The notes under the pieces were generated by a model. That model ran no database searches and was not told the origin of the DNA. It saw nothing but the letters and a program-made list of their open reading frames with translations. The translations under genes and the position numbers were made by a program. Shown piece by piece: positions 4,313 to 48,575 of a stretch of DNA of 64,000 nt. This stretch comes from an uncultured Gammaproteobacteria bacterium (lineage in GTDB: Bacteria > Patescibacteriota > Patescibacteriia > S139-126). The first letter of the stretch is position 1, and each line of letters begins with the position of its first letter. The stretch is from contig CAZUKA010000001.1 of NCBI GenBank assembly GCA_964620905.1, forward strand, positions 298,589 to 362,588. The letters run 5' to 3'.

Positions 4313-7300
4313 ATGAGTTTTGTTCACCTTCATGTTCATAGTCACTTTTCCCTACTTGATGGTTTATCAAAAATTGATGAACTAGTAGAGAAAGCCGTTT
4401 CTTACCACATGCCAGCCGTAGCTCTAACTGACCACGGTGTCATGTATGGAGCGATTGAATTTTATCAAAAATGCAAAAAGGCTGGTATTAAGCCCATTAT
4501 CGGTGTGGAAACCTATTTAGCACCCCTGAGCCGTTTTGATAAATCAAATTCGGAAAATAAATATTATCATTTAACACTGCTAGCCAAAGATTTTGTAGGT
4601 TACAAAAATTTGACCAAACTAGTAACTATCGGCCAACTGGAAGGTTTTTATTATAAACCCCGTATCGATTGGGAGGTGTTAATGTCACATGCAACCGGGC
4701 TAGTCTGCCTTTCCGGGTGCTTAAAAGGTGAATTATCAAGTTATCTAATTAAAAAAGATCTAATTGGTGCCAAAAAAATCATTACCAAATATATCAACTT
4801 ATTCGGCCAGGATAATTATTATTTGGAAGTTCAACACCATCCGGGAATTCCTGAACAAGCCCAAATCAATGAAATGCTTTTTAAACTAGCCAATGAATTT
4901 GGATTAAAAACTGTTGCCACCAACGACGTCCACTATTTATTAAGCGAGGATGCCGAAGCACACGATACTCTGATTTGCTTGCAAACCAAGAGCAAAAAAT
5001 TTGAGTCCAATCGTTTATCTTATCTTCATGATGATTTTTCTTTTCGCTCACCTCAAAGAATGTTGCAGGATTTTAGGGATCACCCCGAAGCTATTGAAAA
5101 TACTTTAGAAATTGCCACTAAATGCAACCTGGAAATACCTATGGGTGAATATTTACTTCCCCAATACGTTTTACCCAAAAATATTTCCCCAGAACAGGAA
5201 CTGAAAAAACTTTGTGAACAAGGTTTGCCACGACGCTACCCCGAACAATTTGACAATCCATCAATTAGAGAAAGATTAAATTACGAACTATCAATCATCA
5301 ATAAAACCGGCTTTGCTTCATACTTCTTGATTGTTCAAGACTTTGTTAATTGGGCAAAAAACAACGGTATCATCGTTGGACCGGGTCGTGGTAGCGCGGC
5401 TGGATCGATCGTCGCTTATTTGACCAATATCACCAATATCGATCCCTTGGCATATGATCTATTGTTCGAGAGATTTTTAAATCCCGATCGAATTTCTATG
5501 CCTGATATTGATTTAGATTTTGCCGATACCAGACGAGATGAAGTAATACATTATGTGGAAAATAAATACGGACATGACCACGTTGCCCAAATCATAACAT
5601 TTGGAACCATGGCTGCCAGAGTTGCAGTTAGGGATGTGGGACGCGTTTTGGGTTTTCCTTACTCTTATTGTGACCAACTGGCTAAACTAATACCAATGTT
5701 TACAACCTTAGACCAAGCTTTACAAGAAAGTTCGGAACTCAAAGAAAAATATACCAACGAAGAAGATACCCGGACAATTATAGATACGGCCAAAAAATTA
5801 GAAGGTATCTCACGTCATACATCAACTCATGCCTGTGGAGTAGTAATCACCCCACAACCACTTGTCAATTATTTACCATTGCAATACGCCGCTTCTGACG
5901 ATAAAACTATTGTTACTCAATACTCATTACACGCAGTTGAAGATTTGGGACTTTTAAAAATGGATTTTTTGGGTTTAAAAAATTTGACTTTAATTGAATC
6001 AGCCGTTGAAATTATTGCCAAAATACATAATCAAAAAATTGATGTAGAAAAAATACCCGTCAATGACAAAAAAACTTTTGCCTTATTACAAAAAGGAGAT
6101 ACCGCGGGAGTATTTCAATTGGAATCCAGCGGTATGCGTCGCTATCTGAAAGCCTTACTGCCCACTGAACTGGAAGACATTATTGCCATGGTCTCACTCT
6201 ATCGACCTGGTCCAATGGAATTTATTGAAGATTATATCAAAGGTAAACACGGTTTGAAAAAAATCTCATATATTGAACCAAAATTAGAACCAATCCTAGC
6301 CAAAACTTATGGCATAGCCGTTTATCAAGAACAGATTATGGAAATTGCCAGAAAACTGGCTCAATTTACTTATGCTGAAGCAGATGTCTTACGTAAAGCT
6401 GTAGGTAAAAAAATAAAATCATTACTTGATACTCAAGAGAAAAAAATGATCACTGGTATGGTGCAAAATGGCATTGCAGAAAAAACGGCCAAAAAAATCT
6501 GGGAATTCATCTTGCCCTTTGCCAGATACGGTTTCAACCGCGCCCATGCTGCCTGTTATGCTATGATTGCTTATCAAACGGCTTATTTGAAAGCCAACTA
6601 TCCAACTGAGTTTATGGCTGCTCTACTGACCGCCAACCAGAGTAATTTTGATCGGGTAGCCAAAGAAATTGAGGAATGTAAAAAAATGAACATCGCCGTA
6701 CTACCTCCTGATATCAATGAAAGCTATTCTACTTTTACTGTAGTCGCAGAAACTATTGGCAGCGAAAATCCGCGTATTCGTTTTGGGCTGACTGCTATCA
6801 AAAATGTCGGTTTAGGTGTAGTTAAAGCAATTATTAAAGAAAGGAAAAATAATGGTCATTTTAAAAATCTAACTGATTTTCTTTATCGCGTTCACAGTAA
6901 AGATTTAAATAAAAAATCTTTGGAATCATTGATTAAATCAGGCACGCTGGATACCTTCGGCGAACGAGAACAAATGTTAGAAAATTTGGAAAAACTTCTC
7001 CAATACAATAAATATGCTACAAATAATATTAACTCAAAACAAACAAATCTTTTCGGTCTAACCAGTCAACCCATACCACCTCTAAACCTAATTCCCGCTA
7101 CAAAAGAAGCAGATGATGCTAAAAAACTAGCCTGGGAAAAAGAATTACTCGGTCTCTATATAACTTCCCACCCTTTAAAAAGTCTGGCACCTTACTTAAA
7201 TAAAACCACTTTTAGAGAATGTAAAAATTTATCAGATCACTTAAACCAAATCATTCAAGTTGTCGGTATGATAGAAAAAATTAAAAAAGTTATCACTCGT

Positions 7301-34988: not shown

Positions 34989-35002
34989 TATTCGTACTAA
35001 AA

Positions 35003-35023
35003 ATCCCGCCATTTTGGCGGGAT
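35003..35023. terminator. Bidirectional intrinsic terminator between convergent genes
   Basis: ATCCCGCC-atttt-GGCGGGAT hairpin flanked by A-runs and T-runs. Confidence 0.7.
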
Positions 35024-35024
35024 T

Positions 35025-36389
35025 TTATTTTATTTTTTTTATAATCCCCTTATTGGCGTCAACCTCTACTATATCTCGATCTTTAAATACTTTGCTTGCA
35101 AATTGAGTGCCCACTATACAGGGTTTTTTATATTCCCGCGCTATTATCGCAGCATGGCTTGTTAAACCGCCATCATCTGTCACAACTGCTTTGGCTTTAA
35201 GCATATAAGGAGTAAATACTGGATAGGTAAACTTAGCAACAAAAATATCTTTACTAGTTACTTTCATCAAATCTTTTTCATTTGCTATAATTTTTACTAT
35301 TCCCCTTACTTTACCCTGACAAGCAACACTACCTTTAACTATTGTATTTTTATCATGGGAACTTATTTTGTTTAACCATTCACTATTATTTGCATTAGAA
35401 ATAAAATATATGCAATTTTTTTCATAGTAATATGCGTATAACCCTTTGGTGCGCAATTTTAACTCTTTTAAATCTGGCCTTATATCTAACTGCAAATAAC
35501 TAAAACCTTCTTTAATAGTCATATTCGTTGCATCACGCAAAGAAATACCTAACTGTTTAGCTAAATACTCATAAAAAGGCCGCGCATAAAATTGCCCTTG
35601 TTTCCACACATCTACTCTGTCAGTTTTTAGCCACACAAATTCACGGGCTATTTCAATTTTTTGCTTTAACTTTTTATCTTTAATAGTTTCAATAAAATTA
35701 GAAAAATCTTTTTTTGATTTAGCAAAATTTTTATATTGATCAAGAATTATATTTTTGTTTAACTTTTTACGTAAAGTAAAAAAATATTTTTTATCATAGG
35801 ACTCTTCAAATGGATTATAGGCATTTAACCAACCATATTTTTTTACTAATACTTTGTCAGATAAACGAAATATATCTTTTTCCATTTTCATATATTCAAT
35901 CGGCCTATTTAGAGAAAATATAACATCCACTTTATCTGGATACTTGCTTATTATTTCTGGTTCATAAATATAAATTGCTGACCACGCTCCCCAAATATAA
36001 TCACAAAAATCATACGCACTTTGCAAATACTCACCATAACTTTTGCTAATGGCTTTTTTATTTTTCTTTTGCGATACTTGACCTAAAATTTTAGCTTTTT
36101 TTATTAAATCATTTTTCTTAGGTACATACTTTTCCAAATAGGTATACCAATTTTTACTCATTTCTTTTCCCAAAATAGTCAAAGTATTCTGATTTGATTG
36201 GGGTTCAAAATAATAGCTAAATACTTTACCATCAGGTACAACTATAAAACTTTTTACCCCCTTGTCTACAATCCAAGATACCCACACTTCGACTCTTGCA
36301 ATACAATCTACTCGCGAAGTAAAATACTCAAATTGCTCTTTGGGTAACGTGATTGAATTATATATATTTTTATATGGATTAAATTTCAT
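35025..36389 (-). CDS. PEP-utilizing-enzyme mobile (phosphohistidine swivel) domain protein, paralog B; N-terminal 350 aa unassigned
   Basis: C-terminus GIVKII..TSKDIFVAKFTYPVFTPYMLKAKAVVTDDGGLTSHAAIIAREYKKPCIVG matches the PEP-utilizers His domain (GGxxxHAAIIAREx.iPcvvG). The start codon overlaps the stop of the upstream paralog (TAATG). Confidence 0.7.
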   Translation of the reverse strand: MKFNPYKNIYNSITLPKEQFEYFTSRVDCIARVEVWVSWIVDKGVKSFIVVPDGKVFSYYFEPQSNQNTLTILGKEMSKNWYTYLEKYVPKKNDLIKKAKILGQVSQKKNKKAISKSYGEYLQSAYDFCDYIWGAWSAIYIYEPEIISKYPDKVDVIFSLNRPIEYMKMEKDIFRLSDKVLVKKYGWLNAYNPFEESYDKKYFFTLRKKLNKNIILDQYKNFAKSKKDFSNFIETIKDKKLKQKIEIAREFVWLKTDRVDVWKQGQFYARPFYEYLAKQLGISLRDATNMTIKEGFSYLQLDIRPDLKELKLRTKGLYAYYYEKNCIYFISNANNSEWLNKISSHDKNTIVKGSVACQGKVRGIVKIIANEKDLMKVTSKDIFVAKFTYPVFTPYMLKAKAVVTDDGGLTSHAAIIAREYKKPCIVGTQFASKVFKDRDIVEVDANKGIIKKIK

Positions 36390-37486
36390 TATATTTTTTT
36401 GATAATTCCTTTATCCGCATTAAGCTCTAGCATATCTCCATTTTTAAATACTTTAGTAGCAAATTTTGTTCCAATTATACAGGGCTTTTTAAGCTCACGC
36501 GCAATAATAGCTGCGTGACATAAAATACCTCCTTCATCAGTAATAATACCAGCACTTCTTTTTAACAAAGACATTAAATCTGGGTGTGTCATAGAAGCAA
36601 CTACAATATACTTATATGCTGGTGTATTACACTTACCCATATTACTGATTAAATAAGCCTTAGCTGTAACATTTCCTTTATAAATAGATATTCCTTCGAG
36701 TTCATTCACCCGATCGATCTTCGGCCATAAATAATTATGTATTTTATTTAAATCACCTGACTTATATAAAACTTGTTCCTTTTTACCATAGTGCAAAAAA
36801 AAATATTTCTTTTTCCTTACTTGGTATAAACTCATTACCTGTTTAATATTTAACTTTTTTCTAAGAAATTGTAAGAATTCTCTACGAGTTAGATAACATA
36901 AAGCATCACCATTAAATTTATTATTAATACTCAACCCTTGAGCAGCTCTACTTAATAATTTTTCAAATAAAACATATTGTTTTGCTACTTCGTTTCTTTC
37001 ATTACCTATTCTTACGACCATTTTACTCGATATGATATTGGTTTTATTTTGGAAAAGTCTAAAAAAACAATTATAAATTGCAATAGCAAAATGAATATCG
37101 ATGGAATACTTATATAATAACCCCAGAGTTTTAAAATATTTTTTATTATTTAAAGATTTTTCAATGGTAGATAAATGTAATTTATTTGATTTATATAATA
37201 TATAAGCTTTTTTTAAAACAATATCAACTTTTTTGTTTGCATCACTTTTTAAATAATTTGAAAGCTTTTGGCGTAAATCATCTTCATTTACAAGCGAATA
37301 AATATCTCCTCCTTTTCCAAACGCACCAAGCGCATTATAACCAAAACCAAATATTTTTTTCAGCCTTACCAAATAAGCCTGAGATAAACTACTCATGGTA
37401 TACAATGAGAGGTCTCGACGAATTGAAGGATGTAAACCGAGTTCTTTTAATTTTCTTATTACTTTTTCTACTTTATTTTTTTTCAT
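36389..37486 (-). CDS. PEP-utilizing-enzyme mobile (phosphohistidine swivel) domain protein, paralog A; N-terminal 270 aa unassigned
   Basis: C-terminus AKAYLI...YKYIVVASMTHPDLMSLLKRSAGIITDEGGILCHAAIIARELKKPCIIG..GDMLELNADKGIIKKI, and the same ...DANKGIIKKI tail as paralog B. Lies 6 nt downstream of the helicase gene. Confidence 0.7.
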   Translation of the reverse strand: MKKNKVEKVIRKLKELGLHPSIRRDLSLYTMSSLSQAYLVRLKKIFGFGYNALGAFGKGGDIYSLVNEDDLRQKLSNYLKSDANKKVDIVLKKAYILYKSNKLHLSTIEKSLNNKKYFKTLGLLYKYSIDIHFAIAIYNCFFRLFQNKTNIISSKMVVRIGNERNEVAKQYVLFEKLLSRAAQGLSINNKFNGDALCYLTRREFLQFLRKKLNIKQVMSLYQVRKKKYFFLHYGKKEQVLYKSGDLNKIHNYLWPKIDRVNELEGISIYKGNVTAKAYLISNMGKCNTPAYKYIVVASMTHPDLMSLLKRSAGIITDEGGILCHAAIIARELKKPCIIGTKFATKVFKNGDMLELNADKGIIKKI

Positions 37487-37492
37487 ATCATA

Positions 37493-40400
37493 TTACTTCG
37501 CCTGCGAAAATTCGCAAATCTTATTAAAATCACAATGTGCGCAAATAAACGGATTGGGGCTAGGAATGAAATTGTTTTGTTTAATCTGTTCAATAGTAGC
37601 TAAAATATCCTGCTTCATTTCAGCTAGTTCTTTATCCGTACCAATAAAACTTAATTTTTTACCATCATCCAAATAATAATAAGTCAGATTTTTGACATTT
37701 TTTTCACCGATTTGTTGAGCTGCCAATTGATAAATCAGTAGCTGTTTTTTGTTGTCCTTATCCAGTTTTTCTTTAGAACTTCCGGTCTTATAATCAATAA
37801 TCTCTAAACTATTATCTGCCAATCTATCTACTCGATCAATCCGACCGGTTAGTTGCCAGTCATCTATTTTTAAATTAAATTTACTTTCCAATCTTTCCGG
37901 GATTACTTTTTCTTTTTCCCAGTTGTCATAAAAATTTTTCAAAGCCTCTTTGCCCTTTTGATAATACTGTTCTTTTTGTTTTTTACTTTCATACCAGTCA
38001 TCTAACCAACACTCATCATAAATTCTCAGCATATTATCAAGGGTTGGCAAATTATTTTTTATAATTGATTTATCAAATAAGTCTGCTTGTCGTAATGATG
38101 TTGCCAATTTTACTTGTTCAAAAAACTTTTGCATAGTCTGATGCATAGTAGTGCCATAACTGAAAGTAAATTTCCCTCGTACCGGAATACGCAAGATATA
38201 AGCAAACTTATACTGCAAAGGACAAGCCTGATAAGAACTAATTTGACTATAGGAAAAAACTTTTGGCGTCGGAAAATTGTAAGCTTTTGCCAATGATTTT
38301 TTGTCTATCCTAATTGTCTTAACTGGTGATAATATTTTTTTAACATTATCAGTTGCTTTAACTGATTTTTCTTTTATCTCTCTTACCAATCCCAATTCAT
38401 ATAAAAACTGACTGGGTTTTTTCTCGCGTACTCCCCCATAATCTTTAGCACCAGATAAAAATAAACCCAATTTTGATCTAGTAATTGCTACATACAATAA
38501 ACGTCTTTCTTCCTGCAAATGTGCATCTCCTTCGGGTAAGATATCTTTGATTAGTTTATCAGGCAAAAGAATTGGTTCTTTTCTTTCTGTGGTTGGAAAT
38601 CTTTTATCTACTAAATTTGGTATAAACACGTATTTAAACTCCAATCCTTTGGCACCATGAATGGTCATTATGCTAACGGTTTCTGGTCCACTACTTGGAT
38701 CCCAAATCATCTTACCCTGTTCTCCAGCATCCAACTCCATTTCCATTTCTATCAAGAAATCCCTCACTTGATTGTCACTAAAACTTTTTTCAAACTCTTT
38801 GGCTTTTTGCAAAAATTGGTTTATATAATTGATATTAGCTTGGGCTTTCTCTGAATCTATCTTGGTCAAATACTGACTATAACCAGTATCTTCTAAAAAA
38901 GATAAAATGACTTTGGTAATTGGTTTACTTTTAGCAATTTGAGTATGTTTATCAATCCAACCCAAAAGCTTACTAACCTCGGTTGTAGTTTGGGGAGATA
39001 CATTTTTTAAAAAAGAAATATTGTTTAGAGTTTCAAACAATGACCAATTTTTTCGATTGGTCCAATAATTCAAATTAATAATTTGCGATTGTTCTATATG
39101 TAAAATCGGTAAATTTAACATTCGATACAACGCCGGCGATTCGTGATAATTATCAAGCAAACGTAAATAATTGATAATATCCAAAATAATTGGCTTAAAA
39201 TAAAGCCCACGAGAAGCAAAAAACTGAAAAGGTATCTGCCGGCTTTCCAACTCTTGAATAAACTCTTTAGCGCTGTCATTGGCCCGAACTAAAATTGCCA
39301 AATCATTCCAAGTCAAATCAGAATCTTTTTCCTTTAAACTGGCAATCTTATCAACCACGCTCGCGACCTCTTGTTCTAAAGAATCATATAAATCAAAGAC
39401 AATCTCACCGGGTTTATTTGATTGAGCGGTCAATTTTTTTGATAAATTTTTCTTATGGTCATTTAATTTTACTTCCAATCTATCTGGGTTGTTGAGTTGA
39501 ATAAAGTTATATGCCAAATCCAAAATATTCTGACTACTACGATAATTGGCTTGTAAAAAAACTTCCTGACTCTGCGGAAAATCTTTTTTGAAATTTAAAA
39601 TATTAGATACTGACGCGCCCCGAAATTTATAAATAGATTGGTCATCATCACCAACCACAGTAATATTGTTTTTTGGTTGTGCTAGCAATTTTATCAGTTC
39701 GTATTGTGCCCAATTGGTATCCTGAAACTCATCGACTAGAATATATTTAAATTGTTGTTGATAATATTGAAGAATTCTTGTTCTGGTTTTAAATAACTTT
39801 AAAGTATAGTTGATTAAATCACCAAAATCCAATGAATTATTGGCAAGTAATATCTGCTGATAAATATGATAGGCAGTGGCCACTTCATTTAACCTGCTTA
39901 TTTCTTGTTCATTAACTTCATTATTTGTACCCTTAATTCTTAATTCTTTATTCTTAATTCTAGCCTTTCCCTTACTCCCCTCCATATCATCAAGGTTTAT
40001 TTTCAGTTCCTCAGCATAAGCTAAATAATCAACCGGATAAATTTCCTCGTCTTTACAACGAGAAAAATGCTGTAATAATGCATGGATAAATTTGGTAGGA
40101 TTACCCAAGGGCGCATAATAATCAAGCAAAAACTTATCTAGATTTTTTCTTATCAACAGCCAACTTTGCGTCTGATCTAATAGTTTAAAATTGGTTGACA
40201 GACCTATATCCAAAGCGTGTAGATGTAAAACTCTCTCACAAAAAGCATGAAAAGTGGAAATCCACAAATCTACATAACCATAAGGCAAAGCTCTATCCAC
40301 CCGCTCTTCCATCTCCCCAGCGGCTTTGTCTGTAAAAGTCAGAGCTAAAATTTGATCAGCAGTTAATTTTTTTTCTTGTACCAACCAGTTTATCCGCTGA

Positions 40401-40513
40401 GTAATAACCGTAGTTTTGCCAGTACCAGCTCCAGCCACAATCAACAATGGCCCTTCACCATGAGTAACAGCTTCTTTCTGTGCTTGATTTAAACTATTAA
40501 GATTTATTTCCAT
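37493..40513 (-). CDS. UvrD/PcrA-family ATP-dependent DNA helicase fused to a C-terminal Cas4/AddB-type PD-(D/E)XK nuclease with a 4-Cys cluster
   Basis: N-terminal SF1 helicase motifs (LIVAGAGTGKTTV; VDEFQDTN; the 2B region), then a C-terminal RecB-family nuclease (GRIDRVDRL...LEIIDYKTG) with Cys at YQACPLQ and CAHCDFNKIC. 1006 aa. Confidence 0.9.
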   Translation of the reverse strand: MEINLNSLNQAQKEAVTHGEGPLLIVAGAGTGKTTVITQRINWLVQEKKLTADQILALTFTDKAAGEMEERVDRALPYGYVDLWISTFHAFCERVLHLHALDIGLSTNFKLLDQTQSWLLIRKNLDKFLLDYYAPLGNPTKFIHALLQHFSRCKDEEIYPVDYLAYAEELKINLDDMEGSKGKARIKNKELRIKGTNNEVNEQEISRLNEVATAYHIYQQILLANNSLDFGDLINYTLKLFKTRTRILQYYQQQFKYILVDEFQDTNWAQYELIKLLAQPKNNITVVGDDDQSIYKFRGASVSNILNFKKDFPQSQEVFLQANYRSSQNILDLAYNFIQLNNPDRLEVKLNDHKKNLSKKLTAQSNKPGEIVFDLYDSLEQEVASVVDKIASLKEKDSDLTWNDLAILVRANDSAKEFIQELESRQIPFQFFASRGLYFKPIILDIINYLRLLDNYHESPALYRMLNLPILHIEQSQIINLNYWTNRKNWSLFETLNNISFLKNVSPQTTTEVSKLLGWIDKHTQIAKSKPITKVILSFLEDTGYSQYLTKIDSEKAQANINYINQFLQKAKEFEKSFSDNQVRDFLIEMEMELDAGEQGKMIWDPSSGPETVSIMTIHGAKGLEFKYVFIPNLVDKRFPTTERKEPILLPDKLIKDILPEGDAHLQEERRLLYVAITRSKLGLFLSGAKDYGGVREKKPSQFLYELGLVREIKEKSVKATDNVKKILSPVKTIRIDKKSLAKAYNFPTPKVFSYSQISSYQACPLQYKFAYILRIPVRGKFTFSYGTTMHQTMQKFFEQVKLATSLRQADLFDKSIIKNNLPTLDNMLRIYDECWLDDWYESKKQKEQYYQKGKEALKNFYDNWEKEKVIPERLESKFNLKIDDWQLTGRIDRVDRLADNSLEIIDYKTGSSKEKLDKDNKKQLLIYQLAAQQIGEKNVKNLTYYYLDDGKKLSFIGTDKELAEMKQDILATIEQIKQNNFIPSPNPFICAHCDFNKICEFSQAK

Positions 40514-40541
40514 AATACTATTTTATCACCCTAAAGTATGA

Positions 40542-40570
40542 TTGACAAAAAATCAATTTGGTGCTAATTT
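40542..40570 (+). promoter_or_regulatory. Sigma70-like promoter (ATGATTGACAAAA...TGcTAATTT)
   Basis: TTGACA at 40542-40547, a 17-nt spacer, extended -10 TGcTAATTT. The downstream RBS is AAGGA. Confidence 0.4.
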
Positions 40571-40614
40571 ATAAAATTATTACATTAAAAAATAAAATAT
40601 AAAAGGAATAAATC

Positions 40615-41043
40615 ATGAAAAGAATCAACTTAAGTAAACCAGCTAGCCAAATCTGGAGTATTGGCTTTTTTCTTTGTTTAGTTTGCACATTTATATATTT
40701 TTATTTAGTCGGTCATTCAACCGTCCCAACTATTGCTAGCCCGATTAATATAATTGAACTAATTCTAAACTACTGGATATTTTCCCTTCCTCTAAGCATA
40801 GTCGGTTTTATATTTTTTATCAGATATTATCTAATACTAAAAAGAAAATACAAATCAAACCAAAAAGAATACTTATCTATAATTTCTACTATGCTTATGC
40901 TAGCTTTATTTCCTTCAATTGTATTTGGCGCTGCTCTCCTAGAGATCACATCAAGCTATTTTGCTTTTATTCCTACTGCTTTAATTATCGCCTGTTTGGT
41001 GATAATTAATATATTAAAAAACTTTAAACAAACCTCGTTTTAG
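40615..41043 (+). CDS. Hypothetical 4-TM small membrane protein
   Basis: 142-aa hydrophobic ORF with a promoter, an RBS and a terminator hairpin at 41031-41057. Confidence 0.45.
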   Translation: MKRINLSKPASQIWSIGFFLCLVCTFIYFYLVGHSTVPTIASPINIIELILNYWIFSLPLSIVGFIFFIRYYLILKRKYKSNQKEYLSIISTMLMLALFPSIVFGAALLEITSSYFAFIPTALIIACLVIINILKNFKQTSF

Positions 41044-41157: not shown

Positions 41158-41448
41158 ATGAAAGATTTCATTCTTTCTATAATAATCATTTTTGGACTAT
41201 TTAGTATAGTCTATCTGATGTCAATTATTTTTGTAATTTTCTTAATCATTGCCTGGGCTCTCCTGGGCACAACAAGTTCTCTCTTTATGGGAGATTTAAA
41301 TTCTTTTCTTATATTTAATAAACAAAATCCTGCACTTATATATATTGCAGCCGGGTTTTCCTTTTTATTTATCGCTTACAAAGCGATACATGAAAAAAAT
41401 AAAAAGAAAAGAAACTTTCGCGGTACATTTATCCGCGGACAAAAATAA
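41158..41448 (+). CDS. Hypothetical 3-TM small membrane protein
   Basis: 96 aa with RBS AAAGGA. Followed by tandem terminators. Confidence 0.45.
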   Translation: MKDFILSIIIIFGLFSIVYLMSIIFVIFLIIAWALLGTTSSLFMGDLNSFLIFNKQNPALIYIAAGFSFLFIAYKAIHEKNKKKRNFRGTFIRGQK

Positions 41449-41983: not shown

Positions 41984-42436
41984 CTATAATTTGTCAATAC
42001 CTTCTCGGCTGGTTCTAATACCTTTCAACTGACGATACTTTTTGCCAACTTTGAGTCTGGCCATTTCTCTTTCCAAGTTAGCAACTACGGCGGCGTATTC
42101 TTCTTGATCATCAATTTTTTCTGTTAATAATTTTTCCGCTCGCGCTCTCGCCTCTTCTACCTTTTCTAAATCAATCTCAGTCGCTAAATCAGCAGAATCA
42201 GCTAAAATAGTGACACTATTTTTCCCCACTTCAATAAACCCACCAGAAACGGCCATAAATTCTTCGTTATTATCAACTTTGATATGTAATTCCCCCGGTG
42301 CTAGCAACGAAATCAAAGGAATGTGTTCTGGTAATACGGTAATCTCCCCTTGCCGAGTAGGGATTGAGACGCTATCAACTTGCTGGTCGAAAACCTTTCG
42401 TTCTGGGGTGGTAATTTTTAAATGAATTTTATTCAT
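41984..42436 (-). CDS. atpC: F1Fo ATP synthase epsilon subunit
   Basis: Beta-sandwich N-terminus (LKITTPERKVFDQQVDSVSIPTRQGEITVLPEHIPLISLL) and a helical C-terminus. Confidence 0.9.
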   Translation of the reverse strand: MNKIHLKITTPERKVFDQQVDSVSIPTRQGEITVLPEHIPLISLLAPGELHIKVDNNEEFMAVSGGFIEVGKNSVTILADSADLATEIDLEKVEEARARAEKLLTEKIDDQEEYAAVVANLEREMARLKVGKKYRQLKGIRTSREGIDKL

Positions 42437-42508
42437 AAATAGCTACCATGTTAATCCTAGGATATATTATTGATTAATAATCTTAATTTTTAATTCTAGA
42501 TTCTAATT

Positions 42509-44799
<2,291 letters not shown>

Positions 44800-44827
44800 A
44801 AACTAATTTTTGAAAATTTATAGCTAA

Positions 44828-46351
44828 TTATAAAGTCTTATTGAAATCTTCAATCACTTGTTTTAATTTATTTTCAATTTCTTCTGTTAACTGTTTTTCC
44901 TGGCTTAATTGTTGACGTAATTTATCACCTGAAGTTTTTAAATAGTCAATAAATTTGTCTTGCCAATTTTTTATATTATCAACTGAAATATTATCAAGAT
45001 AACCATTAGTCAAAGCATACAATACTGCCACCTGATCAACTACGTCAATTAAAACATATTGTGCCTGCTTTAAAATTTCAGTAGCTCTTTTACCAAGTTC
45101 AATCTGTTTTTTGGTAGCTTCATCCAAATCAGAACTAAACTGGGCAAAAGCTGCCAGCTCCCGATACTGGGCCATGTCTAAACGCAATTTTCCAGCCACT
45201 TTTTTCATAGCTTTAATTTGCGCTGCGCTACCAACACGCGAGACTGAAAGTCCCGCATTGATAGCTGGACGGATTCCTTGATAAAACAAATCGGATTCCA
45301 AATATATTTGCCCATCAGTGATAGAAATTACATTGGTGGGAATATAAGCCGACACGTCACCTGCCTGAGTTTCAATAATTGGCAAAGCTGTCAATGACCC
45401 TCCACCATATTTTTCCGACAGTTTAGCAGCTCGTTCCAGTAAACGGGAATGCAAATAAAACACATCACCTGGATAAGCTTCTCGGCCCGGTGGGCGTTTC
45501 AAAAGTAAAGATATTTGCCGATAGGCCCAAGCGTGTTTAGACAAATCATCATAAACTACTAAAACATCTTTACCTTGATCCATAAAATATTCCCCCATGG
45601 CACAACCAGCATAAGGTGCAATATAAGATAAGGCCGCGGGGTCAGAAGCGGAAGCTAAAACTACAATCGTATGATCCATTGCCCCAGACTCTGTCAATTT
45701 GGCAACAATTTTGGCAATTTTCGATTCTTTTTGCCCGATCGCCACATAAATACAAATGATATCCTTGCCTTTCTGATTGATGATGGTATCAATCGCAATC
45801 GCCGTCTTACCAGTTTGCCGGTCACCAATTATCAGCTCTCTTTGTCCCCGACCAATCGGAATCATACTATCGATCGCGACGATACCGGTCTGAACAGGTG
45901 TATCAACTTTCTTTCTAGTAATTACCCGCGGAGCTATTTTTTCCACTGGATACATCTTTCCTGTATCAATTGCACCTTTATTATCCAAAGCCAGTCCTAA
46001 GGGATTGACTACCCGTCCGATTAATTTTTCTCCCACAGGTACAGACAAAATTTTACCAGTACCAATGGCTCGATCGCCTTCTTTCAATTTATTGGCTTCA
46101 CCTAAAATCATCACCCCCAAAATTTCTTCTTCCAAATTCAAAGCAACTCCATACACTTTTTCTCCATTTTCGCTACTAGGAAGAAATTCAATCATTTCTG
46201 CTTGCATGGCATCATACAAACCAGCCACTCTGGCAATACCATCACCAACCTCAATAATCGTACCAAATTTTTCTTCTCGGGTTTGTAATTCGGTTTTGGT
46301 AATTTGTTTTTTCAACTCATCAATTATGTATTGTTTTGTTTCAATTGACAT
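44828..46351 (-). CDS. atpA: F1Fo ATP synthase alpha subunit
   Basis: P-loop [13 protein letters not shown], and overall alpha-subunit conservation. Confidence 0.97.
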
Positions 46352-46372
46352 ATAAATTAGACATTATATTAA

Positions 46373-46768
46373 TTAAGATAAATTTTTTTTCATCAATTTA
46401 AGCTTGCCGGACATTGTATCATCCCATAAATTATCATCCCATGATATTTGTAACCCGGCCAATAAATCTGACTCAACATTATTCTGTAATTCAATTTTAG
46501 CGTTCAGTCGTTTAGCCATAGTTTGCTCAATCAATTTTTTTTCTAGGTTAGTTAAGACCTTAGCCGAATCAACTTTAATAGTTTTAATATTATGGTGCTG
46601 ATTGTATACCTTAGAAAATTCTGACAAAATTTGCTTACCAAAATGTAAGGCTTGGTGATCATGTAAATACTGGACAAAATCAGCAACTATTTTGTTAATT
46701 TCAGTTTTATTTTTTCCCTCAACCAACCGAACTAAACTACGAGCATAATTTTTTGGTTTGATCTTCAT
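46373..46768 (-). CDS. atpH: F1Fo ATP synthase delta (OSCP) subunit, short form
   Basis: Assigned from its operon position between atpF and atpA and from OSCP-like helical sequence. 131 aa, against about 175 typical. Confidence 0.6.
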   Translation of the reverse strand: MKIKPKNYARSLVRLVEGKNKTEINKIVADFVQYLHDHQALHFGKQILSEFSKVYNQHHNIKTIKVDSAKVLTNLEKKLIEQTMAKRLNAKIELQNNVESDLLAGLQISWDDNLWDDTMSGKLKLMKKNLS

Positions 46769-46771
46769 GAT

Positions 46772-47311
46772 TTATTGTTTATCAATTTCGTTAATTACTT
46801 TTTTGATAGCCATTTCATCAATTTTTTCACTAATAAAATGTTCCAATATTTTCTTGGTTAACATAACAACCAATGCCGCTGTTTCTTGTTTTAAATCTGC
46901 TTGTAATAGTTTTTTTTCATCAACAATTTGTTGTTTAGCTTGCTCAACGATATTTTGGGCATCAACTTTAGTCTTCGCGAGTAAAGTTTGTCGCTGACTT
47001 TCCGCCGCCGCAGTTGCCTCAGTGATAATAGCTTGTGATTCTTTTTTTGCTTGAATAATCTTAGCTTCATAATCACTTTCGGTTTTAGCCAACTTTTCTT
47101 CTATTATCTTGGCTTGTTCTAAACTTTTTGCTATCTCGGCACTACGATTATCCATTGTTTTTCGTAATGGCTTAAAAGCAAACTTCCACAAAACCCCGAG
47201 CACTATAAAAAAATTGACAAGTTGAGCAAGTAATAATTTCCAATCAATATAAAATGTTTTTACTAGTTCGTCCATAAAATGAAAATTAAAATTAAATAAT
47301 ATTTTTATCAC
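46772..47311 (-). CDS. atpF: F1Fo ATP synthase subunit b
   Basis: N-terminal TM helix followed by a long charged coiled coil. Confidence 0.85.
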   Translation of the reverse strand: MIKILFNFNFHFMDELVKTFYIDWKLLLAQLVNFFIVLGVLWKFAFKPLRKTMDNRSAEIAKSLEQAKIIEEKLAKTESDYEAKIIQAKKESQAIITEATAAAESQRQTLLAKTKVDAQNIVEQAKQQIVDEKKLLQADLKQETAALVVMLTKKILEHFISEKIDEMAIKKVINEIDKQ

Positions 47312-47349
47312 GAAAGACTGAAATAATCAATCTTTCGTTCATAAAAAAA

Positions 47350-47574
<225 letters not shown>

Positions 47575-47657
47575 CTATTTATTTTCTACTCGACTTATTT
47601 GTTTTTTATTTTATAGTCGGTGAAAATAAATAATTTAATAATTAATTAGTTAACCAA

Positions 47658-48575
47658 TCAATGTTCCTCGGCAGTGGAGGCAATTGTAAAATACACCAAC
47701 GTCAACATAGCAAAAATCAAGGCCTGAATTATACCTACTATTATCTCCAAAAAAATAAACGGGATGGGTACAGCAAACGCAAAAATTGCTGCCATAGAGG
47801 CAAGTAAAACCTCACCAGCAAAAACATTACCGAACAACCTAAATGATAAAGATGCTACTTTAGCTACCTCACCAATTATTTCAATCAAACCGACAAAAAA
47901 CTTTATCGGATTGACAATTACTATTGCCGGTTCTTTCACTATCCGACCAGGGATTTCTGCCAGGGCTTTTAAATTGACAAACTTATTTAAAAAATTCCAT
48001 CCGCCAACTGTTAAAACGCCAAAAAAATTTGCAGCCAGCACTGAAAATATCGCTAAAGCCAAAGTAGTATTTAAATCAGCAGTTGCACCTCGAAACCAAG
48101 GAATAAAAGCGCTATGACCATGGCTAGTTTCAATAAAACCAATTGAACCTACCCCTGGCAACAAACCCAACCAATTATTGAGTAGTAAAAAAATAAAAAT
48201 TGTAAAAACAAAAGGAAAAATTTTTTTGGATTTTACGCTATCATGTGTGACTGAATCCATCATTTCCACGGCTTTCTCCACCATAATTTCAAATATATTT
48301 TGTATACCTTGGGGAATTTTTTTAATACTTCGGCCTAAAACAACAGCCAAAATAACCAAGACAACTACTACTGACCATGAAGAAATTAAAGAATTGGTTA
48401 CTGAAAAATTTCCAATATGAAAAATTGGTTCGGCATACAATGTGATTTCATGACTAACATGTTTATCAACTTCAACTAATTCATTACTTGATTTTTGAGC
48501 CTCGTTTTCCCCAACTATTACTGTAGCATCAACATTTTCATTATTTGCTTTATTATTATCAGAATTTTGAATCAT
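47658..48575 (-). CDS. atpB: F1Fo ATP synthase subunit a
   Basis: LSFRLFGNVFAGEVLL (conserved Arg), multi-TM. Confidence 0.9.
   Translation of the reverse strand: MIQNSDNNKANNENVDATVIVGENEAQKSSNELVEVDKHVSHEITLYAEPIFHIGNFSVTNSLISSWSVVVVLVILAVVLGRSIKKIPQGIQNIFEIMVEKAVEMMDSVTHDSVKSKKIFPFVFTIFIFLLLNNWLGLLPGVGSIGFIETSHGHSAFIPWFRGATADLNTTLALAIFSVLAANFFGVLTVGGWNFLNKFVNLKALAEIPGRIVKEPAIVIVNPIKFFVGLIEIIGEVAKVASLSFRLFGNVFAGEVLLASMAAIFAFAVPIPFIFLEIIVGIIQALIFAMLTLVYFTIASTAEEH

What the first reader, a model, noticed from the sequence alone, without database searches (positions are those of the whole stretch)
35025..40513. Operon coupling a UvrD-helicase/Cas4-like nuclease fusion to two phosphohistidine swivel-domain proteins
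Three minus-strand genes are packed with a 6-nt gap and a TAATG overlap. The first is a 1006-aa SF1 (UvrD/PcrA) helicase carrying a C-terminal RecB/Cas4-type PD-(D/E)XK nuclease with a 4-Cys cluster (CPLQ...CAHCDFNKIC). The other two are paralogs whose only recognisable module is the PEP-utilizing-enzyme mobile His domain (GGILCHAAIIARELKKPCIIG and GGLTSHAAIIAREYKKPCIVG). The unit is bounded by a promoter region at 40514-40614 and a bidirectional terminator at 35003-35023. A phosphotransfer swivel module translationally coupled to a DNA end-processing helicase-nuclease is not a textbook arrangement. It could be a regulated repair machine, a defence-type module, or a phosphotransferase acting on a small molecule in the style of rifampin-phosphotransferase-like enzymes.
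Basis: partly seen in the sequence, partly recalled or inferred. Interest (0 to 1): 0.7.

Follow-up and report, generated by a model that had tools for sequence, protein, structure and literature searches.

The report
Orphan dikinase modules beside repair helicase
The three genes are real and probably co-transcribed, but the helicase-nuclease is a housekeeping DNA-repair gene, and the two genes after it are accessory substrate-binding/phospho-histidine subunits of a rifampin-phosphotransferase-like two-part kinase, a family that ultra-small bacteria and archaea expand into large, so far undescribed tandem arrays.

Summary
In detail: three tightly packed minus-strand genes encode a 1006-aa UvrD helicase fused to a 4-Cys PD-(D/E)XK nuclease, then 365-aa and 454-aa proteins ending in a PEP-utilizer swivel domain.

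The proposed functional coupling does not hold.
- Three relatives share the ATP-synthase–helicase–DciA–PheST backbone but have no swivel genes (L167-L169). One relative has four (L002).
- Only 1 of 80 helicase-orthologue loci has a swivel gene nearby.
- Only 2 of 80 swivel loci carry the orthologous helicase, which is the chance expectation.

The swivel proteins are not split PEP synthase. Their helical N-domain matches only the rifampin-binding domain of rifampin phosphotransferase (RPH). That makes them the substrate-plus-swivel component of a two-component small-molecule dikinase, like HpeH, PpsA and CreH.

In Patescibacteria and DPANN MAGs the family forms same-strand arrays of up to 10 paralogues. 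An array usually has one ~315-aa ATP-grasp gene, and fusions occur, including one 3761-aa ATP-grasp plus 8 modules.

No ATP-grasp gene lies in this 64-kb window, so the phosphoryl donor for this pair is unknown. I found no paper describing the arrays.

Verdict: an ordinary helicase next to a divergent, uncharacterised variant of a known enzyme kind.

The parts
37493..40513 (-). 1006-aa SF1A UvrD/PcrA-type helicase fused to a C-terminal RecB/Cas4-type PD-(D/E)XK nuclease with a 4-Cys cluster. It is a conserved backbone (housekeeping) gene.
   Evidence: Pfam UvrD-helicase, UvrD_C and PDDEXK_1. More than 8000 homologues were found, and the top 120 are 48-100% identical with the same architecture, mostly from Patescibacteria. 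Walker A, DEFQDTN, the nuclease motifs and all four Cys are invariant in 27 orthologues.
37511..38257 (-). Nuclease domain of the helicase (residues 753-1001), including C764 and C991/C994/C1000.
   Evidence: PDDEXK_1 E 9e-39. TIGR00372 Cas4 scores 54.6 bits, below its cut-off of 65. The invariant columns are listed.
36389..37486 (-). 365-aa 'short-type' module: a helical N-domain of about 260 aa followed by a C-terminal phospho-histidine swivel domain.
   Evidence: PF00391 at residues 293-360. 2323 homologues were found. The full-length hits are about 335-380 aa and come from Patescibacteria and DPANN. A family profile aligns residues 194-364 to RPH residues 703-866.
36515..36517 (-). Codon for the predicted catalytic His324 of the 365-aa protein (motif GGILCHAAIIARE).
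   Evidence: H324 is invariant in 50 homologues. It aligns to the RPH motif GGLMTHGAVIARE. The codon was read directly from the sequence.
35025..36389 (-). 454-aa 'long-type' module: an RPH rifampin-binding-like helical N-domain (residues 1-345) followed by a C-terminal swivel domain.
35355..36389 (-). N-domain of the 454-aa protein, the putative substrate-binding domain. Its invariant residues are R26, R32, Y59, Y88, Y191, T256, R258, D260 and F272.
   Evidence: Alignment A3, the AF2 model and the fold searches.
35154..35156 (-). Codon for the predicted catalytic His412 of the 454-aa protein (motif GGLTSHAAIIARE).
   Evidence: H412 is invariant in 48 homologues. The motif His is present in at least 252 of 296 family swivel modules by a strict pattern, and in all 12 printed pattern misses.
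35000..35026 (.). GC-rich hairpin flanked by an A-run and a T-run. It is the shared terminator of the three-gene unit and the convergent Na+/H+ exchanger gene.
   Evidence: 12-bp stem, 6 GC pairs, T-run.
40520..40548 (-). Best sigma-70-like promoter candidate upstream of the helicase (TTGTCA-17-TAAAAT, extended -10 TG).
   Evidence: This is a consensus match only, and such sites are not enriched over shuffled sequence.

Best explanation
The locus holds two unrelated things that sit next to each other.

(1) The helicase-nuclease is the conserved single-chain DNA-end-processing enzyme of this Patescibacteria lineage. It has an AddA/AdnB/RecB-like motor and an iron-staple Cas4/AddB-type nuclease, and it belongs to a stable ATP-synthase–helicase–DciA–PheST–GyrB backbone.

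(2) The slot just downstream of the helicase is variable. In this genome it holds two accessory genes that are transcribed by read-through from the helicase promoter.

Each accessory gene encodes the 'substrate-binding domain plus His-swivel' component of an RPH-type dikinase. This is the same component as HpeH, PpsA or CreH in the two-component dikinases.

Inferred mechanism:
- A separate ATP-grasp (PPDK_N) protein presents ATP.
- The swivel His (H324 or H412) attacks the beta-phosphate and becomes phosphorylated; AMP and Pi are released.
- The swivel domain then rotates onto its own helical N-domain and passes the phosphoryl group to a bound small molecule.

The two divergent N-domains imply two different substrates. 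The translationally coupled pair may alternatively act as a heterodimer.

What is shown: the domain architecture, the conserved His, the RPH-like fold, the family-wide genetic linkage and fusion to an ATP-grasp domain, and the lack of conserved linkage to the helicase.

What is inferred: the phosphotransfer chemistry, the substrates, and the existence of an ATP-grasp partner elsewhere in this 716,806-bp genome.
For: Fold
- The N-domain-only model (pLDDT 94) hits only RPH-Lm structures by Foldseek: six entries, probability 0.69-0.99, TMq 0.46-0.52. The next hit has TM about 0.1.

Sequence
- Family profiles align to RPH residues 699-866 and 703-866, across the end of the RIF-binding domain and the swivel domain.
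- Relatives such as P0102 (795 aa) and P0100 (718 aa) carry PPDK_N in front of the same N-domain plus swivel.

Linkage to an ATP-grasp domain
- In 84 family loci, 26 carry exactly one PPDK_N. It is either a stand-alone gene of 311-337 aa (Pfam E 4e-99 for the L014 example) or is fused in front of the modules.
- The fusions are ATP-grasp plus 1 module (L078, 796 aa), plus 2 modules (L026, L054, L070, L086) and plus 8 modules (L059, 3761 aa).

Catalytic competence
- The motif His is present in at least 252 of 296 modules by a strict pattern and in all 12 printed pattern misses.

Precedent
- HpeHI is a characterised two-component dikinase. HpeI is the ATP-grasp component and HpeH holds the RIF-binding-like and swivel domains. 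An H581Q substitution abolishes activity. PpsAB and CreHI are homologous systems (PMC12167813). The RPH domain logic is described in PMC4844700.

Independence from the helicase
-.

Accessory character
- Copy number in the same slot is 0, 2 or 4 among relatives.
- GC is 0.275 and 0.292, against 0.35 +/- 0.03 for the other ORFs.
Against: - No ATP-grasp/PPDK_N gene exists anywhere in the 64-kb window (tblastn; family HMM, best E 1.4). The close relative L002 has none within its 17 kb either.
- Only about 31% of family loci show a PPDK_N within about 10 kb. A trans-encoded partner is therefore assumed, not seen.
- The N-domain profile has no significant sequence hit in the PDB.
- Scores against every curated NCBIfam model (RPH, PEP synthase, PRK08296) are far below their cut-offs.
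- The swivel motif has Thr or Leu at His-2. Thr is the PEP-synthase-type residue, whereas RPH and HpeH have Met.
- No biochemical data exist for any member of this clade.
- Tight packing with the helicase, plus a second independent adjacency (L048, where the swivel stop overlaps the helicase start), leaves a small chance of a real link.
Confidence: 0.72

Rival explanations
1. A true functional operon. The swivel proteins regulate or energise the helicase-nuclease, for example by phosphorylating it, its DNA substrate or a nucleotide. This would be a regulated repair machine or a defence-type module.
For: - A 6-nt gap and a TAATG overlap, one promoter candidate and one terminator.
- The adjacency is retained in L002.
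- An independent adjacency occurs in L048, with the gene order reversed and the swivel stop overlapping the helicase start.
- The helicase hits PADLOC GajB/DRT helicase models.
Against: - L167, L168 and L169 keep the helicase and its flanking backbone but have no swivel genes.
- Only 1 of 80 helicase-orthologue loci has a swivel ORF, and it lies 4 kb away.
- 2 orthologous helicases in 1.2 Mb of swivel-family loci equals the 1-2 expected for a single-copy gene.
- The PADLOC hits are generic UvrD similarity. The swivel proteins have no defence-model hit apart from noise at E 0.0018.
- The N-domain is absent from viral contigs.
- The family's consistent partner is an ATP-grasp gene, not a helicase.
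Confidence: 0.06
2. Orphan or decaying remnants. The pair is what is left of a larger array (four genes in L002, up to ten elsewhere). It has lost its ATP-grasp partner and is non-functional or on the way to being lost.
For: - Copy number in the same slot varies among relatives: 0, 2 or 4.
- No ATP-grasp gene lies in 64 kb.
- GC and GC3 are low.
Against: - Both ORFs are full length, and every family-invariant residue is intact.
- Orthologues at 82-83% identity keep the same lengths (P0002, P0122).
- Translational coupling is preserved.
- Most family loci (58 of 84) also lack an adjacent ATP-grasp gene, so its absence from a window is the norm.
Confidence: 0.12
3. Swivel carriers that are loaded by something other than an RPH-type ATP-grasp protein. 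The donor could be the organism's own PPDK or PEP synthase, or PEP through an Enzyme-I-like route. Alternatively the domain could act as a regulator without phosphotransfer, like the C-terminal swivel-fold domain of Geobacillus pyruvate kinase.
For: - The swivel domains are closer in sequence to PEP synthase (8a8e, E 1.6e-43) than to RPH (E 6e-30), and they keep the PEP-synthase-type Thr at His-2.
- No ATP-grasp gene is nearby.
Against: - Direct fusions and adjacency to PPDK_N in the same family.
- The RPH-like domain order and N-domain fold.
- No PEP-utilizers_C TIM barrel in the arrays.
- The His is conserved in essentially all modules, which argues for catalysis.
Confidence: 0.1

Closest known systems
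Two-component small-molecule dikinases HpeHI, CreHI and PpsAB (phenylphosphate synthase), specifically the HpeH/CreH/PpsA component
   Same: - Same split architecture: one protein carries an RPH-like helical substrate domain and a C-terminal swivel domain, with the catalytic His in a GG..H motif near the C-terminus.
- The ATP-grasp domain is a separate ~310-340-aa protein, seen in 26 of 84 family loci (PMC12167813).
   Different: - The proteins here are much smaller: 365 and 454 aa, against about 640 aa for HpeH.
- There is no detectable sequence similarity outside the last ~170 residues.
- The residue at His-2 is Thr or Leu rather than Met.
- One ATP-grasp gene serves arrays of up to 10 divergent modules, or is fused to as many as 8.
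- The family is restricted to Patescibacteria and DPANN and has no aromatic-catabolism gene context.
- In this window no ATP-grasp gene is present at all.
Rifampin phosphotransferase (RPH; PDB 5fbs, 5fbt, 5hv1)
   Same: - The domain order is the same: substrate domain followed by a C-terminal swivel domain.
- The sequence aligns over RPH residues 699-866.
   Different: - RPH is a single 867-aa chain with an N-terminal ATP-grasp domain.
- NCBIfam RIF_Ptrans_rph scores 52-53 bits against a cut-off of 999.
- The N-domain here is about 100-170 residues shorter.
- Nothing suggests rifamycin as a substrate.
PEP synthase and pyruvate phosphate dikinase
   Same: - Their swivel domain is the best sequence match (8a8e, E 1.6e-43).
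- The GGxT(S/C)HAAI(I/V)AR motif is kept, including the Thr position.
   Different: - No PEP/pyruvate-binding TIM barrel (PEP-utilizers_C).
- No ATP-grasp domain in the same chain.
- The domain in front of the swivel is RPH-like.
- NCBIfam scores are 71-100 bits against cut-offs of 598-740.
AddA, AdnB and RecB helicase-nucleases, and Cas4/AddB iron-staple nucleases (for the 1006-aa protein)
   Same: - An SF1A UvrD-type motor followed by a RecB-family PD-(D/E)XK nuclease.
- A 1+3 Cys arrangement around the nuclease, as in AddB and Cas4.
   Different: - It is a single chain, and no AddB/AdnA-like partner gene lies next to it.
- It is below the cut-off of every curated equivalog: pcrA 492 vs 911, addA 213 vs 708, cas4 54.6 vs 65.
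- It forms its own widely conserved Patescibacteria clade.

Membership tests
Two-component small-molecule dikinase (HpeHI/CreHI/PpsAB type) | A component that carries an RPH rifampin-binding-like substrate domain followed by a C-terminal His swivel domain | tested here: met
   PF00391 sits at the C-terminus. The N-domain model matches only RPH. Profiles align to RPH residues 699-866.
Two-component small-molecule dikinase (HpeHI/CreHI/PpsAB type) | A conserved catalytic His in the GG..H motif within about 50 residues of the C-terminus | tested here: met
   H324 and H412 are invariant. The motif His is present in at least 252 of 296 family modules by a strict pattern and in all 12 printed pattern misses.
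Two-component small-molecule dikinase (HpeHI/CreHI/PpsAB type) | A separate ATP-grasp (PPDK_N) component encoded with it | tested here: inconclusive
   Not present in the 64-kb window. It is present as one stand-alone or fused copy in 26 of 84 family loci. The rest of this genome could not be read.
Two-component small-molecule dikinase (HpeHI/CreHI/PpsAB type) | ATP-dependent phosphorylation of a small (phenolic) substrate through a phospho-His intermediate | not testable with these tools
   This needs biochemistry. No aromatic-catabolism genes are nearby.
Rifampin phosphotransferase (RPH) | A single chain with ATP-grasp, RIF-binding and swivel domains that reaches the NCBIfam RIF_Ptrans_rph cut-off | tested here: not met
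   No PPDK_N domain. Scores are 52.3 and 53.4 bits against a cut-off of 999.
PEP synthase / PPDK (including a 'split PEP synthase') | A PEP-utilizers_C TIM-barrel domain and a PPDK_N domain, in the chain or in adjacent genes | tested here: not met
   Neither domain is in the proteins or in the window. The domain in front of the swivel is RPH-like.
AddAB / AdnAB / RecBCD-type helicase-nuclease (1006-aa protein) | A UvrD-like SF1 motor with a C-terminal RecB-family nuclease | tested here: met
   Pfam domains. The ATPase and nuclease motifs are invariant.
AddAB / AdnAB / RecBCD-type helicase-nuclease (1006-aa protein) | A heteromeric partner subunit (AddB, AdnA, or RecC/RecD) encoded alongside, and equivalog-level similarity | tested here: not met
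   No second nuclease or helicase ORF is in the window. All NCBIfam equivalog scores are below their cut-offs.
Known anti-phage defence systems (PADLOC) | System-specific models hit by the component proteins | tested here: not met
   Only generic GajB/DRT UvrD-helicase similarity. The 365-aa protein has no hit. The 454-aa protein has one hit at E 0.0018, which is noise.

The most novel reading that the evidence does not exclude
Patescibacteria and DPANN archaea carry a shared, horizontally mobile 'one loader, many modules' dikinase system that has not been described. A single ATP-grasp protein would charge the swivel His of up to ten or more divergent RPH-like substrate modules. These modules lie in same-strand arrays, are sometimes fused into polyproteins of up to 3761 aa, and often sit beside His_Phos_1, HAD or HD phosphatases. 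Together they would form a battery for trapping or inactivating many different small molecules taken from or aimed at their hosts. The window's pair would be a minimal instance of this system, loaded in trans.
Probability: 0.45. Interest if true: 0.65.

Novelty: new variant of a known kind. Interest (0 to 1): 0.42.

Why it matters
For the original claim, the result removes a false lead. The helicase-nuclease is the ordinary DNA-end-processing enzyme of this lineage, and its neighbours are incidental.

The by-product is more interesting. Genomes of only about 0.6-1 Mb, known for shedding metabolism, keep and exchange large arrays of RPH-like phosphotransfer modules whose substrates are unknown.

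If these are multi-substrate dikinases served by one ATP-grasp loader, they could explain one of two things about episymbiotic CPR and DPANN cells: how they trap scavenged metabolites, or how they neutralise host antibiotics.

They would also extend the recently recognised two-component dikinase subfamily far beyond aromatic catabolism.

The result also warns against annotating these genes as 'PEP synthase', 'phenylphosphate synthase' or 'rph' resistance genes in CPR and DPANN metabolic reconstructions, as was done in PMC8091004 and PMC8651080.

Tried and rejected
- Defence system: PADLOC gave only generic helicase hits. A viral-contig scan matched only the swivel domain, never the N-domain. 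Rejected.
- Split PEP synthase: no PPDK_N or TIM barrel in the window by tblastn or by a family HMM. Rejected.
- Sequence-only identification of the N-domain: the Pfam, NCBIfam and PDB profile searches found nothing significant upstream of the last ~60 N-domain residues. Structure prediction was needed.
- The AFDB Foldseek library was unavailable, so similarity to HpeH/PpsA models could not be checked directly.
- Organism name: cluster look-up returned no names or accessions. The Rfam scan found no rRNA or tRNA to help with placement.
- Literature: searches for the arrays using PF00391, 'phosphohistidine swiveling domain', 'PEP-utilizing', 'phenylphosphate synthase' and 'rifampin phosphotransferase', each combined with CPR, Patescibacteria or DPANN terms, found only passing annotations.
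- A first iterative-HMM script timed out in MAFFT. I re-ran it with hmmsearch alignments.
- I could not find a way to read the rest of the 716,806-bp genome to look for the ATP-grasp partner.


Full report
OBSERVATION

They are 37493-40513 (1006 aa), 36389-37486 (365 aa) and 35025-36389 (454 aa).

The helicase stop and the next ATG are 6 nt apart, and the last two genes overlap as TAATG. A hairpin with a 12-bp stem, 6 GC pairs and a T-run lies at 35000-35026. It sits between this unit and the convergent Na+/H+ exchanger gene. The best promoter-like site, TTGTCA-17-TAAAAT with an upstream TG, lies at 40548-40520. Such sites are not enriched over shuffled sequence in this AT-rich DNA (33 found, 30.9 expected).

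Pfam finds UvrD-helicase, UvrD_C and PDDEXK_1 in the large protein. In each small protein it finds only PF00391, the PEP-utilizers mobile domain, at the C-terminus.

The context is a core chromosome of a low-GC (34%) Patescibacteria-like organism. Nearby genes include DnaE, ThrRS, MiaB, GatB, GyrB, PheST, DciA and the F-type ATP synthase. The proteins map to an NCBI contig of 716,806 bp.

THE HELICASE-NUCLEASE

A homology search saturated at 8000 hits. The best 120 are 48-100% identical and have the same UvrD plus PDDEXK_1 architecture. Where a source names them, they come from Patescibacteria.

In an alignment of 27 orthologues, mean column identity is 61%. The following are invariant:
- the Walker A motif and the DEFQDTN motif;
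- the nuclease residues D893, D907-Y908-K909 and Q924/Y928;
- all four cysteines, C764, C991, C994 and C1000.

It scores below the cut-off of every curated equivalog: pcrA 492 vs 911, addA 213 vs 708, cas4 54.6 vs 65. No partner subunit is encoded nearby. I read it as the lineage's single-chain AddA/AdnB-like DNA-end-processing enzyme with an iron-staple nuclease. This is a housekeeping function inferred from family knowledge.

IS THE ADJACENCY CONSERVED?

I tested this in three ways.

(1) Syntenic relatives. Four related contigs share the backbone ATPase operon – two small ORFs (absent in L169) – helicase – [slot] – DciA – PheS – PheT – GyrB.
- L002 (helicase 70% identical) has four swivel genes in the slot.
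- L167 (73% identical), L168 (64%) and L169 (62%) have none. In L167 the helicase is followed directly by the Na+/H+ exchanger gene.

The swivel genes are therefore variable cargo in a slot downstream of a fixed helicase. Their GC content fits accessory origin: 0.275 and 0.292 (GC3 0.19 and 0.22), against 0.35 +/- 0.03 for other ORFs in the window.

(2) From the helicase side. Among 80 metagenome loci encoding helicase orthologues (856 kb of DNA), one has a swivel ORF, and it lies 4 kb away.

(3) From the swivel side. In 80 genome loci of the swivel family (1.2 Mb), the orthologous helicase appears twice, in L048 and L016. A single-copy gene in a 0.6-1.2-Mb genome would be expected there 1-2 times by chance.

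L048 is notable because the swivel stop overlaps the helicase start. It is a single case, and the gene order is reversed relative to the window. Functional coupling to the helicase is therefore not supported.

WHAT THE SWIVEL PROTEINS ARE

Each is the founder of a large subfamily. The 454-aa 'long type' had more than 1645 hits, and the 365-aa 'short type' had 2323. Named sources span Patescibacteria (Falkowbacteria, Jacksonbacteria, Magasanikbacteria and others) and DPANN (Woesearchaeota, Nanoarchaeota, Pacearchaeota, Micrarchaeota).

Sequence similarity to characterised proteins is confined to the swivel domain and the ~60-100 residues before it.
- PEP synthase 8a8e gives E 1.6e-43, covering the swivel domain only.
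- RPH 5fbs aligns at residues 699-866 and 703-866, across the end of its rifampin-binding domain and its swivel domain. The catalytic His aligns with it.

H412 and H324 are invariant in their families.

AF2 models are confident, with pLDDT 92 for the whole protein and 94 for the N-domain alone. With the N-domain alone:
- Foldseek returns six RPH-Lm entries as the only credible hits (probability 0.69-0.99, TMq 0.46-0.52). The next hits have probability 0.07 or less and TM about 0.1.

The two window paralogues share the C-terminal ~100 residues of the N-domain plus the swivel domain, at 33% identity. Iterated profiles pull 249 of 255 array N-regions into one superfamily. That merging may be driven largely by this shared sub-domain.

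GENOMIC LOGIC OF THE FAMILY

I analysed 84 independent loci.
- Swivel ORFs sit on one strand in 269 of 271 cases.
- The median is 3 modules per locus. 33 loci have at least 4 modules and 12 have at least 8. The maximum is 10 in about 20 kb.
- 26 loci contain exactly one PPDK_N ATP-grasp. Most are stand-alone genes of 311-337 aa (Pfam E 4e-99 for the L014 example). The rest are fused in front of one module (L078, 796 aa), two modules (L026, L054, L070, L086; 1047-1246 aa) or eight modules (L059, 3761 aa).
- Module-module fusions without an ATP-grasp domain also exist (P0032, P0038, P0048, P0049).
- The catalytic His is kept in essentially all 296 modules. The residue at His-2 is Thr in about 74% of motif-matched modules and Leu in about 17%.
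- Recurrent neighbours are phosphatase-type genes: His_Phos_1 in 9 loci, HAD in 8 and HD in 6. CTP_transf_like occurs in 5 loci.

This is the architecture of the two-component small-molecule dikinases described in 2025. In HpeHI, HpeI is the ATP-grasp component and HpeH carries the RPH-like substrate domain plus the swivel domain. H581Q abolishes activity, and PpsAB and CreHI are homologues (PMC12167813). The system here is miniaturised and multiplied.

MECHANISM

This is inferred by homology to RPH (PMC4844700), PpsAB and HpeHI.
- An ATP-grasp protein presents ATP.
- The swivel His takes the beta-phosphate, and AMP and Pi are released.
- The swivel domain rotates onto its own helical N-domain and phosphorylates a bound small molecule.

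The divergent N-domains imply different substrates. The fusions, together with HpeH's tendency to dimerise, suggest the translationally coupled 365-aa/454-aa pair may work as a heterodimer. That last point is speculative.

THE MAIN GAP

No ATP-grasp gene exists in this 64-kb window. tblastn found nothing, and a family HMM run with filters off gave a best E of 1.4. There is none in L002's 17 kb either. I could not read the rest of the genome.

Since 58 of 84 family loci also lack an adjacent ATP-grasp gene, a partner encoded in trans is plausible but unproven. Three rivals remain open at low probability: orphan remnants, loading by PPDK or PEP synthase, and a true link to the helicase.

COMPARISON WITH KNOWN FAMILIES, AND NOVELTY

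The proteins fail membership of RPH and of PEP synthase/PPDK. They lack an ATP-grasp domain and a TIM barrel, and their scores are far below the cut-offs. They meet the structural definition of the HpeH/PpsA-type component but are far outside that clade in sequence and size.

Literature searches found only passing annotations:
- 'phenylphosphate synthase' genes reported in DPANN MAGs (PMC8091004);
- 'rph'-like genes counted in a CPR resistome survey (PMC8651080).

I found nothing on the arrays, the 1:many ratio of ATP-grasp genes to modules, or the polyprotein fusions. I therefore rate the swivel genes as a new variant of a known kind and the helicase as ordinary.

Interest is moderate. The headline coupling is refuted. 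The family-level pattern found while testing it is unexpected for such reduced genomes and is directly testable.

Noticed in passing
L059:476-11761: A single 3761-aa ORF in a Woesearchaeota MAG encodes one PPDK_N ATP-grasp domain followed by eight [helical N-domain + swivel] modules. It is a polyprotein-like 'Rosetta stone' for the whole system.
   Followed up: partly
L168:1-7026 and L169:1-7862, compared with window 41984-48575, L002 and L167: Relatives with the same helicase–DciA–PheST backbone carry a V/A-type ATPase operon at the position where the window, L002 and L167 carry the F-type ATP synthase operon. This looks like an in-place swap of ATPase type between related Patescibacteria.
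   Followed up: no
L007-L086 (e.g. L028:7169-8098, L052:2766-3365, L084:13223-13828, L008:7158-7571): Genes next to the swivel arrays are recurrently phosphatase-type: His_Phos_1 in 9 loci, HAD in 8 and HD in 6. Cytidylyltransferase-like genes occur in 5 loci. This hints at phosphorylation/dephosphorylation cycles around unknown metabolites.
   Followed up: partly
L003:1-15482: The contig's gene order is a mirror image around the swivel gene (279, 480, 393 and 303-aa genes on both sides in opposite orientation). It is probably a palindromic assembly artefact.
   Followed up: no
Proteins P0280, P0312, P0327, P0332 and P0339 (helicase orthologues, 1356-1409 aa): Some orthologues of the helicase-nuclease carry Hint/intein-splicing Pfam domains (PF01079 and/or PF14890). 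This suggests intein insertions in this conserved helicase.
   Followed up: no
window 35025-37486: The two swivel genes have clearly lower GC (0.275 and 0.292; GC3 0.19 and 0.22) than the helicase (0.33) and the other ORFs of the window (0.35 +/- 0.03). This fits accessory or acquired genes.
   Followed up: partly
window 1-64000: An Rfam scan at gathering thresholds finds no RNA family at all, not even a tRNA, in 64 kb of core chromosome.
   Followed up: no
window 40615-41043 and 41158-41448 (+ strand): Two small hydrophobic ORFs (142 and 96 aa, no Pfam hit for the first) are divergently transcribed from the helicase. ORFs of the same sizes occupy that position in L002 and L167 (142 and 97 aa), and L168 has 143- and 73-aa ORFs there. 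They appear to be conserved unknown membrane proteins of this lineage.
   Followed up: no
L048:3872-8304: This is a second, independent case of a swivel gene directly abutting the orthologous helicase-nuclease. The order is swivel then helicase, and the stop and start overlap at position 5395. Statistically it is consistent with chance, but it deserves a look if more such cases turn up.
   Followed up: partly
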